39,197 bases of DNA from Escherichia virus LS2. Location of the stretch: sequence record MN518894.2, one strand, 5' to 3'. Under the pieces are notes generated by a model. It searched no databases, was not told the origin of the DNA, and saw nothing but the letters and a program-made list of their open reading frames with translations. Position numbers and translations under genes: made by a program. Of this stretch, positions 2,856-35,729 are shown in pieces (position 1 is the stretch's first letter; each line of letters starts with the position of its first letter).

Positions 2856-5537
2856 ATGAGCGTCATCTCTATTGACAAACATGACTTCTCTGATGTGTCG
2901 AACGCCATTGAGCCGTTTAACCTGCTGGCTGACCACTACGGACAAGACCTTGCAGTCAAACAGCTTCAGCTTGAGCATGAGGCATATACAGAAGGCGAGC
3001 GACGTTTCATCAAGAACCTTGAGCGGCAGACTGAGCGCGGGGAACTGGCAGACAATCAGGTCGCCAAGCCTTTGATGCAGACTCTGGTCCCTAAGATTGC
3101 GCAAGCCGTCAGGGAGTGGCACGAAGGCCTAGACGGGAAGCTGTCAACCTCGCGTCCTAGCGTAGCGTTCACCATGTTGAGCACTGAAGAGAAGGCCGTT
3201 AAGGACCGCTCTATGCGCATCTCCTGTGAGTCCGCTGCGGTTATCATACTGAAGGTCATACTCTCCAAGCTGGTCAAGCCTGAAGGGATACCGATTACAC
3301 CGATGGCCTCCGCGATAGGTCGCACACTTGAGGACGAAATCCGCTTCGGTCGCATCCGTGACAAAGAGAAGGAGCACTTCAAGAAGGCGATAGCTGATAA
3401 CCTGAACAAGCGAGCTGGGGCATCCTACAAAAAAGCCTACATGCAAGCGGTCGAGGCGTCCATGCTGGAGCAAGGCCAACTGGAAGATGCATGGGGTACT
3501 TGGAGTCCTACAGAGGCTGTACACGTTGGCATCAAGATGCTCGAGATTGTCATCCAGTCAACACAACTGGTCGAGCTTAAGCGGTACGGTGCTGGTAATG
3601 CAGCGGCTGACGTAGAGATGGTCCACCTGTCAGACTTCTGGGTCAAGAAGATGGCACAACGAGGATTCAGCCTTGCGGGTATCGCTCCAGTCTACCAGCC
3701 TTGCGTCGTTCCACCTAAGCCGTGGACTGGTGTCGTAGGTGGTGGGTACTGGGCCAAAGGTCGCAGACCGTTACCATTGATTCGCTTAGGGTCTAAGTCT
3801 GCGGTAGCACGTTATGAAGACGTATACATGCCTGAAGTCTATGACGCTGTGAACATCATTCAGAATACACCTTGGAAAGTTAACAAGAAGGTATTGGACG
3901 TGGTGAACATGGTCGAGAAGCTGAACAACACGCCTATTAATGACATCCCTCAGATGGAACCGCTGAAGCCTGAGGACTATGCTGGTGAAACCGAGGAGGA
4001 ACTCAAGGCATGGAAGAAGACTGCTGCTGGTATCTATCGCCGCGAGAAGGCCAGACAGTCACGCAGATTGTCCATGAGTTTCATCGTTCACCAGGCCAAC
4101 AAGTTCTCACAGTTTAAGGCCATCTGGTTCCCGTACAACATGGATTGGCGAGGTCGTGTCTACGCTGTCCCGATGTTCAACCCTCAGGGTAACGACATGC
4201 AGAAGGGGCTCCTGACTCTGGCAGTCGGCAAGCCTATCGGGGCGGATGGTTTCAAATGGCTTAAAGTCCACGGTGCAAACTGTGCGGGTGTCGATAAAGT
4301 CACCTTCGATGAGCGCATCAAGTGGGTGGAAGACAACCACGAAAACATCATGGCTGCTGCTAAGGCACCGATGGATAGTATTGAGTGGTGGGGCAAGTTA
4401 GACTCTCCGTTCTGTTTCCTCGCGTTCTGCTTCGAGTATGCTGGCGTAATGCACCACGGCCTGTCTTACTCCTGCTCGCTGCCGATAGCGTTCGATGGGT
4501 CCTGCTCTGGTATTCAGCACTTCAGTGCGATGCTTCGTGACCACATCGGTGGACATGCAGTAAACCTGACGCCATCCGGCATGGTACAAGACATCTACCG
4601 CATTGTGTCTGACCGCATTGAGGAGGAGCTTAAAGTCCTTCTGATTAACGGTACTGACAACGAGATGGTCACTCACGAGGATAAGAAAACTGGTGAGATT
4701 ACCGAACGTATCAAGCTGGGGACACGAGAGCTGGCCCGTCAGTGGCTGACATACGGTATGTCACGCAAGGTCACTAAGCGTTCAGTCATGACTCTGGCAT
4801 ACGGGTCGAAAGAGTACGGATTCGCAGACCAAGTTTACGAGGACATCGTGATGCCAGCGATTGACTCAGGGTCTGGCGCTATGTTCACTGAACCAAGCCA
4901 AGCGTCTCGCTTCATGGCAAAGATGATTTGGGAAGCTGTGAGTGTGACAGTAGTTGCTGCGGTTGACGCGATGAAGTGGCTTCAAGGTGCTGCCAAGCTG
5001 CTGGCTGCTGAGGTGAAGGACAAGAAGACTGGGGAAATCCTGAAGCCTTGCCTTCCGGTACACTGGGTCACACCTGATGGGTTCCCGGTCTGGCAGGAAT
5101 ACCGCAAGAAGGATACCACTCGTCTGAACCTGATGTTCTTAGGGTCCTTCAACCTTCAACCTACGGTCAACAAAGGTACGAAGAAAGAGCTGGACAAGCA
5201 CAAGCAGGAGTCAGGCATTAGCCCCAACTTCGTCCACTCACAAGATGGTAGCCACCTGCGGAAGACTGTAGTCCACACTCACAGCAAGTATGGCGTGATG
5301 TCATTCGCAGTGATTCACGATAGCTTCGGGACCATCCCTGCTGACGCTGAGTATCTGTTCCGTGGTGTCCGTGAGACGATGGTCGAGACATACCGCGATA
5401 ACGATGTGCTGCTTGACTTCTACGAGCAGTTTGAATACCAGCTTCATGAAAGCCAGCGCGACAAGTTGCCTGAGCTTCCGAAGAAAGGTAAACTGAATAT
5501 CGAAGACATCTTGTCTTCAGACTTTGCATTCGCTTAA
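2856..5537 (+). CDS. gp1: Single-subunit DNA-dependent RNA polymerase (T7 gene 1 homolog, 893 aa)
   Basis: Co-linear similarity to T7 RNAP throughout, including C-terminal ...HSQDGSHLRKTVV...IHDSFGT...FAFA. Confidence 0.97.
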   Translation: MSVISIDKHDFSDVSNAIEPFNLLADHYGQDLAVKQLQLEHEAYTEGERRFIKNLERQTERGELADNQVAKPLMQTLVPKIAQAVREWHEGLDGKLSTSRPSVAFTMLSTEEKAVKDRSMRISCESAAVIILKVILSKLVKPEGIPITPMASAIGRTLEDEIRFGRIRDKEKEHFKKAIADNLNKRAGASYKKAYMQAVEASMLEQGQLEDAWGTWSPTEAVHVGIKMLEIVIQSTQLVELKRYGAGNAAADVEMVHLSDFWVKKMAQRGFSLAGIAPVYQPCVVPPKPWTGVVGGGYWAKGRRPLPLIRLGSKSAVARYEDVYMPEVYDAVNIIQNTPWKVNKKVLDVVNMVEKLNNTPINDIPQMEPLKPEDYAGETEEELKAWKKTAAGIYRREKARQSRRLSMSFIVHQANKFSQFKAIWFPYNMDWRGRVYAVPMFNPQGNDMQKGLLTLAVGKPIGADGFKWLKVHGANCAGVDKVTFDERIKWVEDNHENIMAAAKAPMDSIEWWGKLDSPFCFLAFCFEYAGVMHHGLSYSCSLPIAFDGSCSGIQHFSAMLRDHIGGHAVNLTPSGMVQDIYRIVSDRIEEELKVLLINGTDNEMVTHEDKKTGEITERIKLGTRELARQWLTYGMSRKVTKRSVMTLAYGSKEYGFADQVYEDIVMPAIDSGSGAMFTEPSQASRFMAKMIWEAVSVTVVAAVDAMKWLQGAAKLLAAEVKDKKTGEILKPCLPVHWVTPDGFPVWQEYRKKDTTRLNLMFLGSFNLQPTVNKGTKKELDKHKQESGISPNFVHSQDGSHLRKTVVHTHSKYGVMSFAVIHDSFGTIPADAEYLFRGVRETMVETYRDNDVLLDFYEQFEYQLHESQRDKLPELPKKGKLNIEDILSSDFAFA

Positions 5538-5549
5538 CAGGAGAGAGTT

Positions 5550-5765
5550 ATGAAATTTGCACACAAGCATGCTGGAGTTAAGGGCGGGACTCAAATCGTG
5601 ACCGTAACAGAACACAACGGCAATGGTCTGGTGAAGACCACGGTCATTCCTACCGAAATGTCAAAGCAGCTTAACGTCCCATTCAAGACCCTCGTCTATC
5701 TTGTGGAATCCAGCCACGAGAAATACCTGAAAGACGCAGTGACCAAGCTGGAGCAGACCAAATGA
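5550..5765 (+). CDS. Hypothetical protein (71 aa) between RNAP and the gene 1.1 promoter
   Basis: Good Shine-Dalgarno GGAGAG; natural codon usage; a degenerate second copy lies at 5843-6151. Confidence 0.65.
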   Translation: MKFAHKHAGVKGGTQIVTVTEHNGNGLVKTTVIPTEMSKQLNVPFKTLVYLVESSHEKYLKDAVTKLEQTK

Positions 5766-5839
5766 CAGACCTACAGTTACTGGCCTTGTGGCTGGGAGCA
5801 CTCGCAGTATTCACTTTAATCCAAAGCAGAAGAGGTTAA
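5762..5839 (+). CDS. Small hydrophobic peptide ORF (25 aa, MTDLQLLALWLGALAVFTLIQSRRG)
   Basis: ATGA overlap with the upstream stop; single predicted transmembrane helix; weak support. Confidence 0.3.
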   Translation: MTDLQLLALWLGALAVFTLIQSRRG

Positions 5840-5842
5840 CCC

Positions 5843-6151
5843 GAAATTTGCACACAAGCATGCTGGAGTTAAGGGCGGGACTCAAATGAACCATCCAGTG
5901 ACCGTAACATAATCTTGAGCTGGCTAACCGGGAACACACACGGCAATGGTCCAAGATTTAGAAGGCTCTGGTGAAGACCACGGTCATTCCTACCGAAATT
6001 AAGCGGATGGTCGGCCTGAAGTTCAAGGCTCTGTTCAAGACCCTCGTCTATCTTGTGGAATTCAAGACCGGGCCAGCCACGAGAAATACCAGAAAGACGC
6101 ACTTCACCACGAGTCGAGACAAGCTGGAGCAGACCAAATGACAGACCTACA
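5843..6151 (+). pseudogene. Block-mosaic degenerate copy of 5552-5775 (gene 5550-5765 plus the first codons of the next ORF)
   Basis: Nine blocks of 6-46 nt 100% identical to the upstream gene, separated by eight replaced blocks of 2-34 nt; ATG replaced by CCG; frame broken. Confidence 0.6.
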
Positions 6152-6343
6152 CGGATGGCTCTCAGAAGGACTTTGAGTACCGACTGAGCGACATCGACGG
6201 TCGCATCCAGTATGACTACGAGCAGGTTAAAGTCTATGGACAGGAGGCCGAACGTGAGCGAGCGATTCAGGCATTCACGCAGGTAAGACCGCGCATCATC
6301 TTACCCCTTTGCCTCCCATTGCCGTTAACCGTTAAAATTCCGT

Positions 6344-6395
6344 GTCGACGTACGTACGTACGTACGTACGTACGTACGTTGCATGCATGCATGCA
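6344..6395. repeat. GTCGAC followed by (ACGT)8 (6348-6379) and (TGCA)4 (6380-6395)
   Basis: Perfect tetranucleotide periodicity; alternating purine-pyrimidine, fully self-complementary; contains SalI, BsiWI, SnaBI, SphI and NsiI recognition sequences. Confidence 0.95.
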
Positions 6396-6417
6396 CTAAA
6401 CTATCACTATAGGATTA
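6395..6417 (+). promoter_or_regulatory. Phage-RNAP promoter (+1 near 6412), phi1.1 equivalent
   Basis: cactaaactatcactata G gatta. Confidence 0.8.
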
Positions 6418-6458
6418 GACTCAAGGTCATGACTCAAAGTCGTGGCCTTCATGATTAA
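6417..6458 (+). promoter_or_regulatory. RNase III-type processing site (R1.1-like)
   Basis: agactcaaggtc...gtggccttcatgatta resembles the T7 R1.1 site as I recall it; two further copies at 13113 and 36188. Confidence 0.6.
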
Positions 6459-6497
6459 CCGGTACGACTCAGGTTCAATTACCGGAGCTGTACACCA

Positions 6498-6671
6498 ATG
6501 TATCAGAACACTATCAACTTCGAGCGAATCCGTGAACGTCAGCAGACTGAAGATTATATTCCGAAGGGACGCAAGCTGAACAAGACCAAGCGTGGTGGAG
6601 GTGTCAAGGGTGCTTTCCGTAACGCTGAAGGCAAAGACGCTCTATGGTCAACCAAGAGAAATACTTCGTAG
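6498..6671 (+). CDS. gp1.1: gp1.1-like small basic protein (57 aa)
   Basis: Contains KGRKLNKTKR as in T7 gp1.1 (from memory); below the ORF-track length cutoff. Confidence 0.65.
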   Translation: MYQNTINFERIRERQQTEDYIPKGRKLNKTKRGGGVKGAFRNAEGKDALWSTKRNTS

Positions 6672-6950: not shown

Positions 6951-7999
6951 CAACTATCAAAACCAACCCGCATCGCGCTGTAGATTACTCTGAGTCAGGC
7001 GTTAAGAAAGCGCTTGAAGCTGCTGGGTCGCTGGAAGCCGAAGTGAAGTATGACGGTGTGCGGTTGAATATTCCGGTGATGCGCGAAGGTGAGAACTACT
7101 GGTTAAGCCGTGAGTCAAAAACGCTTCCGGCCTTAGACTGGGTCAACAGTGAGTCAGGACATGCATGCCGTGCGGCCGACTGGCGATGGTTCCTGAAGCA
7201 AGCAGGACATGAAGTCGTCGGTCTGCTGATTGACGGAGAGGTGCTGGTCAAGGGTGTAGACTTCAACACATCCTCAGGTCTTATCCGCACCATGTGGCTG
7301 ACCCCAAGCAACTACAAGTGCGCTGAAGGCTATCCAAGACGTGGCAACAAGGTCCCATTCCAGATAGCCCGGTTACTACTAAAAGTGGTCGTCTACGGGG
7401 TCATCGACCTTAACATCATCAACGACCCGAAAGCCGAAGGTCCTATCCATAGCGTCACACGCCTGAAGGCCGAAGCTATCGTCCCTCTCCTCCAGAAATA
7501 CTTCCCGGAAATAGACTGGGTTCTGTCTGAGTCATACATCGTGTTTGAGCTTGAGGAGCTTAACTACTTGTATGAAAAGAAGAGCCGAGAGGGCCATGAG
7601 GGTCTGGTGGTTAAAGACCCACTGGGACGCTGGAAGCGTGGCAAGAAGTCAGGTATGTTCAAGATGAAACCCGAAGAGGGCACGGACGGTACGTTGTACG
7701 GCCTGATATGGGGAACAGAAGGTCTAGCCAACGAAGGTATGGTCATCGGCTTTGACGTTATGCTTGAGAACGGGATGGAAGTGAACGCGTGCGGCCTGAC
7801 CGAAGAACAGAAAGATGAATTTACCGCGAGCGTGCTGAACTGGCGCAAAGGCCTGTGCAGCAGCACCATTTATGGCAACCCGTTTGCGGGCAACCAGGTG
7901 GAAGTGCTGTTTATGGAACGCTTTCCGGATGGCAGCCTGCGCCATCCGAGCTTTAAATGCTGGCGCGGCACCGAAGATAACCCGACCGTGAAAAGCTAG
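6947..7999 (+). CDS. gp1.3: ATP-dependent DNA ligase (T7 gene 1.3 homolog); true start ATG 6947 (MTTIKTNP...), C-terminal 73 codons recoded
   Basis: GGAGGA 7 nt upstream of ATG 6947; IKTNP N-terminus and C-terminal PDGSLRHPSF...RGTEDNP match T7 ligase. Confidence 0.93.
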   Translation: MTTIKTNPHRAVDYSESGVKKALEAAGSLEAEVKYDGVRLNIPVMREGENYWLSRESKTLPALDWVNSESGHACRAADWRWFLKQAGHEVVGLLIDGEVLVKGVDFNTSSGLIRTMWLTPSNYKCAEGYPRRGNKVPFQIARLLLKVVVYGVIDLNIINDPKAEGPIHSVTRLKAEAIVPLLQKYFPEIDWVLSESYIVFELEELNYLYEKKSREGHEGLVVKDPLGRWKRGKKSGMFKMKPEEGTDGTLYGLIWGTEGLANEGMVIGFDVMLENGMEVNACGLTEEQKDEFTASVLNWRKGLCSSTIYGNPFAGNQVEVLFMERFPDGSLRHPSFKCWRGTEDNPTVKS

Positions 8000-8152
8000 C
8001 AGAACCCACGGTCCTATACCAGGGTGTGTGACTCAGGCGGTGAACCCGTAGTCACTGCCAATCTGGAGAGAAATACGTTCAATACCAGAAATCAACTGGT
8101 CGATGGCAATAAAGCGTACGTCAGCCGAGGCGGTAGCCTAAGAGATTCATTA

Positions 8153-8192
8153 TAATGTCAACCCAGTGGTCATTAATGTCAACCCAGTGGTC
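8153..8192 (+). repeat. Tandem 19-bp direct repeat taatgtcaacccagtggtc x2 (8153-8171, 8174-8192)
   Basis: Exact duplicate; second copy forms the 5-prime arm of the terminator hairpin. Confidence 0.9.
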
Positions 8193-10544: not shown

Positions 10545-10992
10545 GGTTCAGTTCAACCCACGGTCCCGGACTGACGCTATCTTCGTTCACTGTTCGGCTA
10601 CCAAGCCAGATATGGACATCGGGGTAGAGACCATCCGTATGTGGCACAAGCAGCAAGGCTGGCTGGACGTAGGCTACCACTTTATCATCAAGCGAGATGG
10701 CACTGTGGAAGAGGGTCGCCCGGTCAATGTCGTAGGGTCACACGTTAAGGACTGGAACTCAAAGTCCGTAGGCGTCTGCCTTGTAGGTGGAATTGACGCT
10801 AAGGGCAAGTTTAAAGCTAACTTCACTCCGGCCCAGATGCACTCCCTGCGCAACAAGCTGGCTGACCTGAAGGCCCTGTATCCTCAGGCAGAAATAAAAG
10901 CACACCATGACGTAGCACCTAAGGCGTGTCCAAGTTTCGACTTGCAACGCTGGCTGACTACCAACGAACTGGTCACTTCCGACCGAAGCTAA
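10534..10992 (+). CDS. gp3.5: N-acetylmuramoyl-L-alanine amidase / lysozyme (T7 gp3.5 homolog)
   Basis: AIFVHCSATKP...WHKQQGWLDVGYHFIIKRDGTVEEGR...KACPSFDL matches T7 lysozyme. Confidence 0.95.
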   Translation: MVSKVQFNPRSRTDAIFVHCSATKPDMDIGVETIRMWHKQQGWLDVGYHFIIKRDGTVEEGRPVNVVGSHVKDWNSKSVGVCLVGGIDAKGKFKANFTPAQMHSLRNKLADLKALYPQAEIKAHHDVAPKACPSFDLQRWLTTNELVTSDRS

Positions 10993-11128
10993 TCACCGGA
11001 AACATGGGACCATGAGTCCTATGGAAAGTCGTCATTTAGAATTGCGGAGTGACGAATGGCTAAATCGTATTAAGTATCAACAGCCGAGGGTCCACGTTCA
11101 GGTATGATCCACGACAACAAGGCTGAAG

Positions 11129-11198: not shown

Positions 11199-12902
<1,704 letters not shown>

Positions 12903-17016: not shown

Positions 17017-17039
17017 ACTAAACTATCACTATAGGGACT
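17017..17039 (+). promoter_or_regulatory. Phage-RNAP promoter (+1 near 17034), phi6.5 equivalent
   Basis: cactaaactatcactata G ggact. Confidence 0.8.
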
Positions 17040-32876: not shown

Positions 32877-35576
32877 ATGTCCACGATTACACAATTCCCT
32901 TCAGGAAACACTCGTTACAGGATTGAGTTCGACTACCTAGCCAGAACGTTTGTTGTTGTTACGCTGGTGAATAGCTCTAACCCTGCCCTGAACCGTGTAC
33001 TGGAAGTTGGTCGAGATTACCGATTCCTTAATCCAACGATGATTGAGATGTTGGTTGACCAATCAGGTTTCGACATCGTTCGTATTCACCGTCAGACTGG
33101 AACTGACTTAGTGGTAGACTTCAGGAATGGCTCAGTGTTGACAGCTAGTGACCTGACCAATGCAGAGCTTCAGGCTATCCATATTGCAGAAGAAGGTCGA
33201 GACCAAACTGTTGACTTAGCGAAGGAATATGCCGATGCTGCTGGTAACTCTGCTGGCAACGCTAAGGATAGCGAGGACGAAGCACGACGAATCGCTGAGA
33301 GTATCAAGGCATCTGGTCTGCGAGGCTATATTACCCGTCGCTCCTTCGAGAAAGGCTTCAACGTTACAATATGGAACGAGGTACTGCTATGGGAAGAGGA
33401 TGGTGATTATTACCGATGGGATGGTGGACTGCCAAAAAACGTACCTGTTGGTTCAACTCCTGAAACGTCTGGCGGCGTTGGTTTGGGTGCGTGGGTTAGT
33501 GTTGGTGATGCGTCATTGCGCGCCCGGCCTGCCGAAAAACGTGCCGGTGGGCAGCACCCCGGAAACCAGCGGCGGCGTTGGCGCGATAACGGCGATCCGC
33601 GCGGCTGGGGCGCGATTGGCGATGGCGTGACCGATGATACCCTGGCGCTGCAGGCGTGCTTTGATACCGCGACCTGCGATATTGATCTGGGCGGCAAAAC
33701 CTATCTGGTGCGCAAAAACCCGACCCTGGCGGCGACCTATCCGAACGAACCGGATTTTAGCGATGGCAGCTATAACTATAGCCCGTGCCTGGCGCTGGTG
33801 GGCAAAAAAAACATTAAAATTCATAACGGCGCGCTGATTGTGGAAACCCATGGCCTGGATGCGATTAGCCTGATTGCGTGCGAACATGTGACCGTGGATC
33901 TGACCATTAAAGGCCCGGGCATTTTTCCGGCGATTGATACCCCGACCGGCTATGCGGAAAAAGGCGAAGCGAACTTTGGCTATGATAGCAGCCTGCTGCT
34001 GGCGCCGAACAACGCGCTGGATACCAGCGCGTATACCGGCGGCGCGTATGCGGGCGTGGCGGGCCAGTTTCCGAAATATAACGCGGATGGCAGCCAGGCG
34101 AGCGGCTGGCAGAGCACCTGGGGCACCTTTCTGGGCGGCTATATTGGCAGCTGGGCGTGCGGCGTGAAAGTGCAGCGCGCGTGCCGCGGCATTCTGATTA
34201 ACGATTGCGATATTAGCGGCTTTAACTTTGGCGCGGTGGGCATTGGCATTCGCAACACCGCGGCGGCGTATGGCGCGAGCGATTATACCACCGATGCGGA
34301 TATTCCGGATGGCGTGATGGTGATTAACACCCGCATTCGCAAATGCTATAGCGCGGGCATTTATGTGCTGAGCGGCTATCGCCTGAACTATATGGCGAAC
34401 AACATTGAAGATATTGGCCATCCGAACGGCAACGATGCGCTGAACGCGAGCTATGATCCGGGCTATGGCATTACCCATGGCCGCAACCGCCGCATTCGCA
34501 ACGTGACCATTACCGAAAACATGATTCGCAACTGCCGCCGCAAATGCATTGATTTTCATGGCGGCGGCCAGGCGATTATTGCGAAAAACCATTGCCTGGA
34601 ACATGGCGTGGTGGGCATTTATGCGAAATGCGGCCCGGGCTGGAGCCCGAACTATGAACCGTATAACCTGATTATTGCGGATAACTATGTGCGCAGCCGC
34701 GATGTGCCGGCGAGCGAAACCACCGGCCCGCTGATTGGCGCGAAATATACCCGCAGCATTGATGTGGGCGGCGGCGGCGAAGCGACCCAGGCGACCTATC
34801 CGGATCCGTTTGTGAAAATTCATAACAACTATTGCGAACTGCGCGCGTATGATGGCGTGGCGATTAGCACCGGCGCGGGCGATGATAACTATAACGTGTT
34901 TATGGATATTGATGTGAGCCATAACACCGTGGTGCTGAAATGCAACACCCCGAACAACTTTGCGGAAGGCATTGGCATTAACGCGGGCGCGGCGAGCAAC
35001 AAAGTGTATCGCGGCCAGCGCGTGAAACTGATTGGCAACAGCATTAAACAGCTGAACACCCTGAACCTGACCTATCGCAGCGCGGGCTATAAAATTCAGG
35101 GCATTCCGAAAAGCCTGATTATGCATGGCAACACCCTGGATCTGAACGTGAGCACCCAGAGCTGCAAACTGTGCGATTTTGTGATTGATAGCCGCATTAA
35201 CTATAGCTTTGAAGGCAACCAGGTGCTGAGCTTTAGCGCGCGCGATAGCGCGACCCTGCAGGAAGTGTGGCTGTATGATAACATGAAAATTACCCGCCCG
35301 GCGGCGGCGGCGGCGGCGACCATTAGCGGCAACCTGTTTCGCGGCATTTGGCAGGTGTGCATTGCGGGCACCGGCGATGCGTTTGGCGCGAAACAGACCC
35401 AGTTTGCGAGCACCGGCAGCGGCGGCACCGGCTTTGATGTGGTGCGCAGCGCGACCACCGGCTTTATTGCGACCTTTGGCATTGGCGCGAGCGGCCTGAT
35501 TGTGCCGGCGGTGACCCAGGAAAGCCAGGTGCAGATTAACCTGAAACTGGTGAGCAGCCTGGATAGCGTGGCGTAA
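32877..35576 (+). CDS. gp17: Tailspike / tail fiber (gp17 position): native T7-like N-terminal anchor (to about 33528) fused to a recoded pectate-lyase-like beta-helix (depolymerase-type) domain
   Basis: N-terminus resembles the T7 gp17 tail-binding domain (FDYLARTFVVVTL...); body contains WGAIGDGVTDDTLALQACF; single uninterrupted 899-codon ORF. Confidence 0.9.
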   Translation: MSTITQFPSGNTRYRIEFDYLARTFVVVTLVNSSNPALNRVLEVGRDYRFLNPTMIEMLVDQSGFDIVRIHRQTGTDLVVDFRNGSVLTASDLTNAELQAIHIAEEGRDQTVDLAKEYADAAGNSAGNAKDSEDEARRIAESIKASGLRGYITRRSFEKGFNVTIWNEVLLWEEDGDYYRWDGGLPKNVPVGSTPETSGGVGLGAWVSVGDASLRARPAEKRAGGQHPGNQRRRWRDNGDPRGWGAIGDGVTDDTLALQACFDTATCDIDLGGKTYLVRKNPTLAATYPNEPDFSDGSYNYSPCLALVGKKNIKIHNGALIVETHGLDAISLIACEHVTVDLTIKGPGIFPAIDTPTGYAEKGEANFGYDSSLLLAPNNALDTSAYTGGAYAGVAGQFPKYNADGSQASGWQSTWGTFLGGYIGSWACGVKVQRACRGILINDCDISGFNFGAVGIGIRNTAAAYGASDYTTDADIPDGVMVINTRIRKCYSAGIYVLSGYRLNYMANNIEDIGHPNGNDALNASYDPGYGITHGRNRRIRNVTITENMIRNCRRKCIDFHGGGQAIIAKNHCLEHGVVGIYAKCGPGWSPNYEPYNLIIADNYVRSRDVPASETTGPLIGAKYTRSIDVGGGGEATQATYPDPFVKIHNNYCELRAYDGVAISTGAGDDNYNVFMDIDVSHNTVVLKCNTPNNFAEGIGINAGAASNKVYRGQRVKLIGNSIKQLNTLNLTYRSAGYKIQGIPKSLIMHGNTLDLNVSTQSCKLCDFVIDSRINYSFEGNQVLSFSARDSATLQEVWLYDNMKITRPAAAAAATISGNLFRGIWQVCIAGTGDAFGAKQTQFASTGSGGTGFDVVRSATTGFIATFGIGASGLIVPAVTQESQVQINLKLVSSLDSVA

Positions 35577-35729
35577 GAATGCCTGTGGCTGGAAGCGGCG
35601 TTTCAGCGCCGCCGCTGCGAACGCATTGAAAGCCGCCTGACCGAACTGGAACTGATTATTAAAAAAGCGAAAGAAATTGAATCATAACAACTTTGGGTCA
35701 CGGACGACCCGCTTTAAACTGGAGGTTTT

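What the first reader, a model, noticed from the sequence alone, without database searches (positions are those of the whole stretch)
6344..6395. Perfect (ACGT)8(TGCA)4 tract preceded by GTCGAC, abutting a phage promoter
This is a 48-nt perfectly periodic, alternating purine-pyrimidine, fully self-complementary tract. It creates overlapping SalI, BsiWI (CGTACG), SnaBI (TACGTA), SphI (GCATGC) and NsiI (ATGCAT) sites. T7-type genomes normally contain no such low-complexity palindromic arrays. It could be a synthetic linker or landing pad, an assembly artifact, or a Z-DNA/cruciform-prone element; its last base is position -17 of the promoter at 6395.
Basis: seen in the sequence. Interest (0 to 1): 0.65.

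Follow-up and report, generated by a model that had tools for sequence, protein, structure and literature searches.

The report
Artificial ACGT filler in phage record
The perfect (ACGT)8(TGCA)4 run is really in the sequence, but it is most likely made-up filler in a partly computed GenBank phage genome (Escherichia virus LS2 and two sister records), not a biological element.

Summary
The tract is there exactly as described: (ACGT)8 at 6348-6379, (TGCA)4 at 6380-6395, SalI at 6344-6349, and its last base is -17 of a phage promoter. It is the 3' half of a clean 93-nt insertion (6303-6395) between the end of gene 1.05 and the phi1.1-type promoter. In relatives such as Peacock, EcoDS1, SEA1f and TM1 these two features abut directly.

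The window is Escherichia virus LS2 (MN518894.2). The insertion occurs elsewhere only in LS3 and ECG4, two near-identical Indian sewage records; LS3 has the neighbouring accession. It is absent from more than 200 gene 1.05 homologues, and its sequences give no exact match in IMG/VR, JGI metagenomes or GTDB genomes. No (ACGT)6 run exists in 2.9 million viral contigs.

The same records carry clear signs of computed sequence:
- 665 consecutive one-codon-per-amino-acid codons encode a tailspike domain 100% identical to Peacock's.
- ECG4 and LS3 have a second (ACTG)3(ACGT)6 run that cuts off their tailspike gene.
- ECG4 has a poly-T run that puts a stop in the primase gene.
- Differences between the records show no trace of purifying selection.

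Verdict: non-biological filler, confidence about 0.8. A real engineered insert (about 0.1) or a natural element (about 0.04) is not excluded without reads or PCR.

The parts
6303..6395 (+). 93-nt (31-codon, in-frame) insertion relative to Peacock, EcoDS1, SEA1f and TM1. It sits between the last sense codon of gene 1.05 and the promoter.
   Evidence: Alignment A1: relatives read ...CATCATCTT|CTAAACTATCACTATAGG with nothing between. The whole-genome alignment reports a single 93-nt gap at 6303-6395.
6303..6347 (+). Non-repetitive left half of the insertion (ACCCCTTTGCCTCCCATTGCCGTTAACCGTTAAAATTCCGTGTCG). No donor was found.
   Evidence: The only matches are ECG4 and LS3 among 50,697 phage records. 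There is no exact match in IMG/VR, JGI metagenomes or GTDB genomes, and nothing significant in plasmids or E. coli genomes.
6344..6349 (.). SalI site GTCGAC, overlapping the first ACGT unit.
   Evidence: Three further SalI sites lie elsewhere in the window.
6348..6379 (.). (ACGT)8, a perfect 32-nt self-complementary run.
   Evidence: TRF score 64 with 100% matches. Inverted repeat with 16-nt arms and 0 spacer. Folds as a 14-bp hairpin in single-stranded DNA.
6380..6395 (.). (TGCA)4, a perfect 16-nt self-complementary run. Its unit is the unreversed complement of ACGT.
6395..6417 (+). Phage RNA polymerase promoter (the phi1.1 equivalent), ACTAAACTATCACTATAGGATTAG, with +1 at 6412.
   Evidence: One of 11 copies of the consensus in the window. 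The homologous site is annotated as a promoter in EcoDS1. It is conserved in all relatives.
6418..6460 (+). Conserved leader hairpin downstream of the promoter. By position and sequence it resembles the T7 R1.1 RNase III site.
   Evidence: Invariant in 6 phages. RNA fold of 6412-6500 gives -30.1 kcal/mol, z = -3.9. The RNase III assignment rests on my own knowledge of T7 and was not tested.
6142..6399 (+). 3' part of gene 1.05 (Pfam Phage_T3_1_05). Its frame runs through the insertion to the original TAA at 6397-6399. In this window it is cut off from the gene's start by an in-frame TGA at 6139-6141.
   Evidence: Translation and Pfam hit PF25755. In ECG4 and LS3 the ORF is intact (130 aa) and ends ...RPRIILPLCLPLPLTVKIPCRRTYVRTYVRTLHACMH*.
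6498..6671 (+). Gene 1.1, the first gene served by the promoter.
   Evidence: ORF list. Pfam Phage_1_1, E = 1e-9.
33579..35573 (+). Context evidence: the tailspike C-terminal domain is written with exactly one codon per amino acid for 665 consecutive codons, the form a back-translation takes.
   Evidence: The protein is 100% identical to Peacock tail spike from residue 233 (RWRDNGD...) to the end, while the DNA differs at about 100-130 positions per 500 bp.
7775..7996 (+). Context evidence: the 3' end of the DNA ligase gene is written with one codon per amino acid for 74 consecutive codons.
35577..35687 (+). Context evidence: a stretch of one-codon-per-amino-acid sequence after the tailspike stop codon. 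It paraphrases the end of an endosialidase-type chaperone domain. At this locus ECG4 and LS3 instead carry (ACTG)3(ACGT)6.

Best explanation
The tract is not a biological element. It is arbitrary filler that entered the deposited sequence when the record was assembled or revised. The window is the GenBank record Escherichia virus LS2. This record and its two sister records, LS3 and ECG4, mix genuinely sequenced Kayfunavirus DNA with stretches that were computed or typed rather than read. The computed stretches are back-translated protein, ACGT/ACTG placeholder runs, and arbitrarily filled single positions.

The 93-nt block sits exactly at the upstream edge of a 19-nt promoter repeat that occurs many times in the genome. 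That is a place where short-read contigs typically break. I infer, but have not shown, that a join or gap of unknown length was filled there and that the block was then carried into all three records through a shared template. On this reading the real phage most likely has the Peacock-type junction ...CATCATCTTCTAAACTATCACTATAGG. The tract then has no function. The annotated 31-residue extension of gp1.05 in ECG4 and LS3 is an annotation consequence of the filler.
For: (1) Distribution. The 93-nt block is found only in LS2, LS3 and ECG4. LS2 is MN518894.2 and LS3 is MN518893.2. Of 226 gene 1.05 homologues from NCBI, Logan, ENA and JGI, only the ECG4/LS3 protein carries the extension, and it comes from NCBI/UniRef only. 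Exact scans for the tract junction found nothing in IMG/VR, JGI metagenomes or GTDB genomes, and the same is true of scans for the left half. (ACGT)6 occurs in 0 of 2.9 million viral contigs.

(2) Clean insertion. Peacock is 100% identical for about 140 bp on the left and about 65 bp on the right, with no sequence missing. No donor was found.

(3) The same records contain demonstrably computed sequence. LS2 has 665 and 74 consecutive one-codon-per-amino-acid codons, against a genome mean of about 32% for those codons, and the tailspike stretch encodes a protein 100% identical to Peacock's tail spike.

(4) ECG4 and LS3 carry a second placeholder-like run, GACTGACTGACTG(ACGT)6. It replaces the conserved end (...RIEERLKKLEAK*) of the tailspike chaperone domain.

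(5) Differences among the sister records are not evolutionary. ECG4 versus LS3 differences fall at codon positions 1:2:3 in the ratio 63:67:74, with 117 nonsynonymous against 34 synonymous codons and transitions/transversions of 91/221. ECG4 has T at 136 of the 312 sites and LS3 has A at 138. For ECG4 versus Peacock the figures are 277:241:1380, 441 against 1275, and 1280/1091. ECG4 reads GCTTTTTTTTTTTAA, giving MAFFF* at the start of the essential primase/helicase gene.

(6) TGCA is the unreversed complement of ACGT. That relation makes sense in typed or scripted text, not in DNA.
Against: LS2 is not a simple copy of ECG4 or LS3. It has its own natural-looking modules: gene 1.2 matches LI10P1 and ST1749 at about 92%, and it has HNH-endonuclease remnants at 8000-8150 and 10990-11125. 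It also differs from the sister records within 120 bp of the insertion. A shared real insertion in one phage lineage is therefore possible.

The insertion is exactly in frame (93 nt). It keeps the original stop codon and supplies a consensus A at promoter position -17. That is tidier than a random gap fill would need to be.

No reads, and no earlier versions of the records, could be inspected. How and when the block entered the records is inference.
Confidence: 0.8

Rival explanations
1. The insert is real but man-made. LS2, LS3 and ECG4 would then be, or descend from, laboratory-engineered phages in which a synthetic block (a marker, watermark or restriction-site pad) was placed just upstream of the phi1.1 promoter. 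LS2 would additionally carry a synthetic, naively codon-optimised tailspike swap.
For: The placement is precise and in frame. It preserves the stop codon and a consensus promoter. The block is dense in restriction sites. Replacing the receptor-binding domain with a one-codon-per-amino-acid copy of Peacock's tail spike is what a host-range engineering experiment with a synthesised gene could look like.
Against: The ECG4 and LS3 records (and by inference LS2) give sewage as source. None of the sites is unique in the genome and most recur 2-7 times inside the tract, so it is useless as a cloning pad. A 32-bp perfect palindrome is hard to synthesise and clone. There is no vector or scar homology. 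The other anomalies are not design-like: a stop at codon 6 of the primase/helicase gene in ECG4, a tailspike C-terminus in ECG4/LS3 whose homology is broken across reading frames and truncated by ACTG/ACGT runs, a back-translated ligase end, and selection-blind differences between records.
Confidence: 0.1
2. The insert is a natural element of this phage lineage. A palindromic tetranucleotide array would form a cruciform or Z-DNA under the negative supercoiling generated upstream of the strong phi1.1 promoter. It would then modulate transcription, or replication initiation at the T7-type primary origin.
For: Each block is perfectly self-complementary and folds well as single-stranded DNA (-22.3 kcal/mol, z = -4.6). 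It alternates purine and pyrimidine except at one step. It abuts the promoter that, in T7, marks the primary origin (established T7 biology, not tested here). It is present in three records that differ elsewhere.
Against: No comparable array exists in 2.9 million viral contigs, and there is no junction match in metagenomes or genomes. It is absent from every other Kayfunavirus examined and from more than 200 homologues. The copy number is identical in all three records, although such arrays should slip. The three records are not independent. The (TGCA)4 and (ACTG)3 companions have no structural logic. From general knowledge, zero-spacer palindromes of this length are substrates for T7 endonuclease I and host SbcCD.
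Confidence: 0.04
3. The tract is a sequencing-chemistry artefact. Noise reads from a flow-based sequencer (454 or early Ion Torrent, flow order TACG) call one base per flow and read TACGTACG.... Such reads were assembled into, or used to bridge, a contig end at the promoter repeat.
For: (ACGT)n is the TACG flow cycle (my own knowledge of the platforms). The tract lies at the edge of a repeated promoter, a natural contig break point.
Against: (TGCA)4 and the (ACTG)3 run in ECG4/LS3 are not flow-order sequences. The 45-nt non-repetitive left half is unexplained. The identical 93 nt in three records argues for copying, not independent noise. The sequencing platform is unknown.
Confidence: 0.04

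Closest known systems
Placeholder or gap-fill sequence and in-silico back-translation in deposited assemblies (a data artefact, not a biological family)
   Same: It has an arbitrary periodic 'alphabet' pattern (ACGT, TGCA, ACTG). It lies at a repeat boundary or at the edge of a divergent module. It has no homologue anywhere. It co-occurs with one-codon-per-amino-acid stretches and arbitrarily filled positions in the same records.
   Different: Normal practice is to leave runs of N. Here the stretches are written as ordinary bases and annotated as coding sequence, so nothing in the record flags them.
T7 phi1.1A/phi1.1B promoter and primary replication origin region (between gene 1 and gene 1.1)
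   Same: The genomic position is the same: downstream of the RNA polymerase gene, with a phage promoter followed by a conserved leader hairpin and gene 1.1.
   Different: This genus shows one promoter copy at the locus. The ACGT/TGCA block is not part of the conserved architecture and is absent from all other relatives examined. Origin function was not tested.
Cruciform- or Z-DNA-forming palindromic alternating purine-pyrimidine tracts
   Same: The inverted repeat is perfect with zero spacer, the tract alternates purine and pyrimidine, and the hairpins are stable.
   Different: There is no evidence that the DNA exists physically. Alternation is broken at the ACGT/TGCA junction. The tract is not conserved and has no natural counterparts in viral collections.
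Synthetic multiple cloning sites or watermarks in engineered genomes
   Same: It is restriction-site dense, has no natural homologue, and is inserted precisely without disrupting neighbouring signals.
   Different: The sites are not unique and are repeated within the tract. No information-bearing or vector-derived sequence is present. The records give sewage as the source of the phages.

Membership tests
Natural tandem repeat / microsatellite of a phage lineage | Present in independently sequenced isolates | tested here: not met
   It is found only in LS2, LS3 and ECG4: LS2/LS3 are neighbouring accessions, all three share source and backbone. It is absent from IMG/VR, JGI metagenomes, GTDB genomes and more than 200 homologous loci.
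Natural tandem repeat / microsatellite of a phage lineage | Copy-number variation or degenerate copies between relatives | tested here: not met
   All three records have exactly 8 + 4 perfect units.
Cruciform-forming perfect palindrome | Inverted repeat with short or no spacer and a stable hairpin on each strand | tested here: met
   The arms are 16 nt, 100% complementary, with 0 spacer. The DNA fold gives -22.3 kcal/mol, z = -4.6. This is a property of the written sequence only.
Cruciform-forming perfect palindrome | Extrusion in vivo, or a functional consequence | not testable with these tools
   This needs physical DNA. Whether the tract exists in the phage at all is itself in doubt.
Z-DNA-prone tract | Uninterrupted alternating purine-pyrimidine run | tested here: inconclusive
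   The runs alternate, but they are separated by one pyrimidine-pyrimidine step at 6379/6380. The energetics of the B-Z transition were not computed.
Designed multiple cloning site / landing pad | Restriction sites unique in the construct | tested here: not met
   SalI, BsiWI, SnaBI, SphI and NsiI each occur 2-6 times elsewhere in the genome. Apart from SalI, each also occurs 2-7 times inside the tract.
Designed multiple cloning site / landing pad | Vector-derived or documented synthetic flanks | tested here: not met
   There is no significant match to 72,556 plasmids or to E. coli genomes, and no paper describing the phages was found.
In-silico filler / computed sequence in a database record | Other stretches of the same record are demonstrably computed rather than sequenced | tested here: met
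   There are 665 and 74 consecutive one-codon-per-amino-acid codons, and the tailspike stretch encodes a protein identical to Peacock's.
In-silico filler / computed sequence in a database record | Similar placeholder runs elsewhere in the sister records, at places where real sequence is missing | tested here: met
   (ACTG)3(ACGT)6 truncates the conserved tailspike C-terminus in ECG4 and LS3. A poly-T run creates a stop in the ECG4 primase gene.
In-silico filler / computed sequence in a database record | Tract absent from the raw reads or physical DNA | not testable with these tools
   The tract-bearing ECG4/LS3 protein and the LS2 proteins looked up are listed from NCBI/UniRef only, with no Logan or ENA source, so I found no read-derived assembly of these phages.
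T7-group phage RNA polymerase promoter (the neighbouring feature) | Match to the genome's own conserved promoter consensus from -17 to about +2 | tested here: met
   ACTAAACTATCACTATAGG is identical to the copies at 17017, 20850 and 32808. The homologous site is annotated as a promoter in EcoDS1.

The most novel reading that the evidence does not exclude
The 93-nt block, including (ACGT)8(TGCA)4, physically exists in the LS2/LS3/ECG4 phage lineage. It would be a recently acquired, cruciform- and Z-DNA-prone array immediately upstream of the phi1.1 promoter and presumed primary origin, tolerated by a T7-like phage that encodes a junction-resolving endonuclease I. It would be either natural or an escaped engineered marker.
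Probability: 0.1. Interest if true: 0.55.

Novelty: not a real feature. Interest (0 to 1): 0.15.

Why it matters
Biologically the tract matters little, because it most likely does not exist in the phage.

The practical importance is data quality. Three public 'complete genome' records (LS2 MN518894.2, LS3 MN518893.2, ECG4 MN218775.2) appear to contain computed or placeholder sequence annotated as genes. These include a back-translated tailspike domain, which could mislead inferences about host range and recombination. The records are already used as comparators in phage genomics (LS2 is cited in PMC13538957), and their proteins are in the protein collections searched here (NCBI, UniRef).

Scans for unusual sequence features will keep flagging such stretches. 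A run of one codon per amino acid, ACGT/ACTG runs, and differences between sister records that ignore codon position are cheap, general detectors for this class of artefact.

Tried and rejected
- **Donor search for the insertion.** I searched for the tract junction or the non-repetitive left half in phage records, IMG/VR, JGI metagenomes, GTDB genomes, plasmids and E. coli genomes. Nothing turned up beyond ECG4 and LS3. A mobile element, host DNA or vector origin therefore has no support.
- **Protein-level search for the 31-aa gp1.05 extension.** Only the ECG4/LS3 protein carries it. A conserved coding function is rejected. In LS2 itself the frame is cut off by an upstream TGA.
- **A sigma-70 promoter in the left half (TTGCCT-18-TAAAAT).** This is one 9/12 match against 2.3 expected by chance. 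Rejected.
- **A diversity-generating or barcode explanation for the hypervariable gene 1.1 leader (6461-6497).** Considered because ECG4 has T at most variable positions. Rejected in favour of arbitrary filling, because the same T (ECG4) and A (LS3) bias is genome-wide and ignores codon position.
- **Flow-order (TACG) noise.** Kept only as a minor rival, because it cannot explain (TGCA)4, (ACTG)3 or the left half.
- **Literature.** No paper describing ECG4, LS2 or LS3 was found.
- **Ranking oddity.** The first whole-window megablast ranking did not list ECG4 or LS3 near the top. Direct alignment showed them to be the closest relatives.

Full report
**1. The observation**

The tract is in the sequence as described. 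GTCGAC lies at 6344-6349, (ACGT)8 at 6348-6379 and (TGCA)4 at 6380-6395, all perfect. Dinucleotide-preserving shuffles give no (ACGT)4 at all, even with one mismatch. The listed restriction sites are present.

The window has 11 copies of the promoter consensus (A/C)CTAAACTATCACTATAGG. The copy here starts transcription at G6412, so the last base of the tract, A6395, is position -17 and fits the consensus.

Two details need correcting. The 48 nt are two adjacent self-complementary blocks, not one palindrome. The purine-pyrimidine alternation breaks at T6379/T6380.

**2. Genomic setting**

The window is a T7-like Kayfunavirus. The order of features around the tract is:
- RNA polymerase gene, 2856-5537
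- small genes
- gene 1.05 (Pfam Phage_T3_1_05)
- the tract
- the promoter
- a conserved leader hairpin
- gene 1.1, 6498-6671
- gene 1.2
- the ligase gene

In EcoDS1, Peacock, SEA1f and TM1, gene 1.05 ends ...CATCATCTTCTAA, and this end overlaps the promoter. Against these relatives the window has one clean 93-nt insertion, 6303-6395. The tract is the 3' half of that insertion. Peacock is 100% identical for about 140 bp to the left and about 65 bp to the right.

The insertion is exactly 31 codons and keeps the original TAA. In ECG4 and LS3 it is annotated as a C-terminal extension of gp1.05. In this window an in-frame TGA at 6139-6141 cuts the frame upstream.

**3. Distribution**

Among 50,697 phage records, only Escherichia virus ECG4 (MN218775.2) and LS3 (MN518893.2) have the block, and it is 100% identical in both. 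Exact protein look-ups identify the window as Escherichia virus LS2, accession MN518894.2 (PMC13538957). That accession is adjacent to LS3's. The ECG4 and LS3 records give India and sewage as source.

The three genomes show 0 differences per 500 bp over most of their length. They are not independent witnesses.

Elsewhere the block is missing:
- Neither the tract junction nor the left half has an exact match in IMG/VR, JGI metagenomes or GTDB genomes.
- The left half matches nothing in plasmids or E. coli genomes.
- Of 226 gene 1.05 homologues, many from read-derived Logan and ENA assemblies, only the ECG4/LS3 protein has the extension, and it is known from NCBI/UniRef only.
- No (ACGT)6 run occurs in 2.9 million IMG/VR contigs.

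**4. The records contain computed sequence**

This was the decisive context.

*Back-translated tailspike.* In the window, codons 33579-35573 of the tailspike gene are 665 consecutive codons using one fixed codon per amino acid (GCG, CGC, AAC, GAT, TGC, CAG, GAA, GGC, CAT, ATT, CTG, AAA, TTT, CCG, AGC, ACC, TAT, GTG). The genome-wide frequency of those codons is about 32%. The encoded protein is 100% identical to Peacock's tail spike from residue 233 to the end, while the DNA differs at about a quarter of positions. That is a back-translation, not evolved DNA.

*Other back-translated stretches.* The last 74 codons of the ligase gene (7775-7996) are written the same way. So is a short stretch after the tailspike stop codon, 35577-35687.

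*A second placeholder run.* At that last locus ECG4 and LS3 carry GACTGACTGACTG(ACGT)6. It replaces the conserved end (...RIEERLKKLEAK*) of an endosialidase-type chaperone domain. The upstream reading frame in those records shows only islands of homology to that domain, broken across frames.

*Clustered, non-evolutionary differences.* ECG4, LS3 and LS2 differ in tight clusters that do not look evolutionary.
- At the start of the primase/helicase gene they read MAFFF* (a poly-T run in ECG4), MALIS and MAVVV.
- In the gene 1.1 leader, 16 of 40 positions differ between fixed anchors, and ECG4 has T at most of them.
- Genome-wide, the ECG4 versus LS3 substitutions compare with a natural pair as follows:

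| Measure | ECG4 vs LS3 | ECG4 vs Peacock |
|---|---|---|
| Differences at codon positions 1:2:3 | 63:67:74 | 277:241:1380 |
| Nonsynonymous vs synonymous codons | 117 vs 34 | 441 vs 1275 |
| Transitions / transversions | 91 / 221 | 1280 / 1091 |

- At the 312 ECG4 versus LS3 substitution sites, ECG4 has T at 136 and LS3 has A at 138.

These are arbitrarily filled or erroneous positions, not mutations filtered by selection.

**5. Explanation**

The simplest account is that the 93-nt block is filler that entered during assembly or record revision. It would have spread to the three records through a shared template.

Its position fits a contig break or join, because it lies exactly at the upstream edge of a promoter repeat present many times in the genome. 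The unit pair ACGT/TGCA (complement without reversal) and the ACTG run in the sister records look typed or script-generated.

What is shown and what is inferred:
- *Shown:* the restricted, non-independent distribution; the clean insertion; and the presence of computed sequence and placeholder runs in the same records.
- *Inferred:* the route by which the block entered, and that the true junction is Peacock-like.

I put this explanation at about 0.8.

**6. Rivals**

*A real engineered insert, about 0.1.* This is suggested by the tidy in-frame placement, the preserved consensus promoter and the tailspike swap. Against it:
- the sites are neither unique nor useful;
- there is no vector homology;
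- the sister records give sewage as the source;
- several anomalies are not design-like.

*A natural cruciform or Z-DNA element near the T7-type origin, about 0.04.* The written sequence is consistent with this. It is contradicted by the total absence of similar arrays in nature's sampled phages, by the invariant copy number, and by the lack of independent isolates.

*Flow-order sequencing noise, about 0.04.* This could give (ACGT)n, but not (TGCA)4, (ACTG)3 or the non-repetitive left half.

LS2 does contain genuine lineage-specific sequence. Gene 1.2 is 92% identical to that of LI10P1, and there are HNH-endonuclease remnants at 8000-8150 and 10990-11125. The records therefore mix real and computed sequence, which keeps the 'physically real' readings from being excluded.

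**7. Verdict**

The feature is most likely not real biology. Biological interest is low. The useful output is a flag on three public phage genome records and a simple recipe for detecting this kind of artefact.

The decisive checks are the GenBank version histories, the raw reads, or a PCR across 6230-6520.

Noticed in passing
window 33579-35573: The tailspike C-terminal (receptor-binding) domain is written with one codon per amino acid for 665 consecutive codons. It encodes a protein 100% identical to Escherichia phage Peacock tail spike residues 233-899. A roughly 50-nt non-homologous junction lies at 33524-33578.
   Followed up: yes
window 7775-7996: The last 74 codons of the DNA ligase gene are also one codon per amino acid. 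In ECG4 and LS3 the same stretch is garbled relative to Peacock (indels, and a GATCGGAAG motif).
   Followed up: partly
window 35577-35687; L009 (ECG4) 35654-35690; L011 (LS3) 35652-35688: After the tailspike stop codon, the window has a back-translated peptide (ECLWLEAAFQRRRCERIESRLTELELIIKKAKEIES*). It paraphrases the end of an endosialidase-type chaperone domain, whose natural form reads QCFWLEAAYQRRRCDRIEERLKKLEAK*. ECG4 and LS3 instead have (ACTG)3(ACGT)6 at this spot.
   Followed up: yes
window 11208-11216; L009 (ECG4) about 11327-11345: Codons 3-5 of the primase/helicase gene read VVV in LS2, LIS in LS3 and FFF followed by a stop in ECG4 (a T11 run). As written, ECG4 lacks an intact full-length primase.
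   Followed up: yes
window 6461-6497: The leader and ribosome-binding region of gene 1.1 differs at 16 of 40 positions among LS2, LS3 and ECG4, with fixed anchors between them. ECG4 has T at most variable positions.
   Followed up: partly
window 5843-6151 versus 5552-5775: Patches of the small gene downstream of the RNA polymerase gene are repeated inside gene 1.05 (direct repeats of 29-45 nt, 95-100% identical). One of them brings in the in-frame TGA at 6139-6141 that splits gene 1.05 in this window. This could be natural gene conversion or mis-assembly; it is not resolved.
   Followed up: partly
window 8153-8192: A perfect 21-nt direct repeat (TAATGTCAACCCAGTGGTCAT x1.9) duplicates the 5' arm of the early terminator (TE) hairpin. 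ECG4, LS3 and Peacock have one copy.
   Followed up: no
window 8000-8150 and 10990-11125: These LS2-specific segments are about 79% identical to the 3' ends of HNH endonuclease genes in other T7-like phages. They are probably relics of homing-endonuclease insertions and are genuine mosaic sequence.
   Followed up: partly
whole-genome alignment of window, L009 (ECG4), L011 (LS3) and L010 (Peacock): Differences between the sister records ignore codon position, are mostly nonsynonymous and are rich in transversions, with a T bias in ECG4 and an A bias in LS3. ECG4 still contains an N. This pattern is unlike the natural divergence from Peacock.
   Followed up: yes
window 6412-6460: The conserved hairpin in the phi1.1 transcript leader is invariant across six phages. 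By position and sequence it resembles the T7 R1.1 RNase III processing site.
   Followed up: partly
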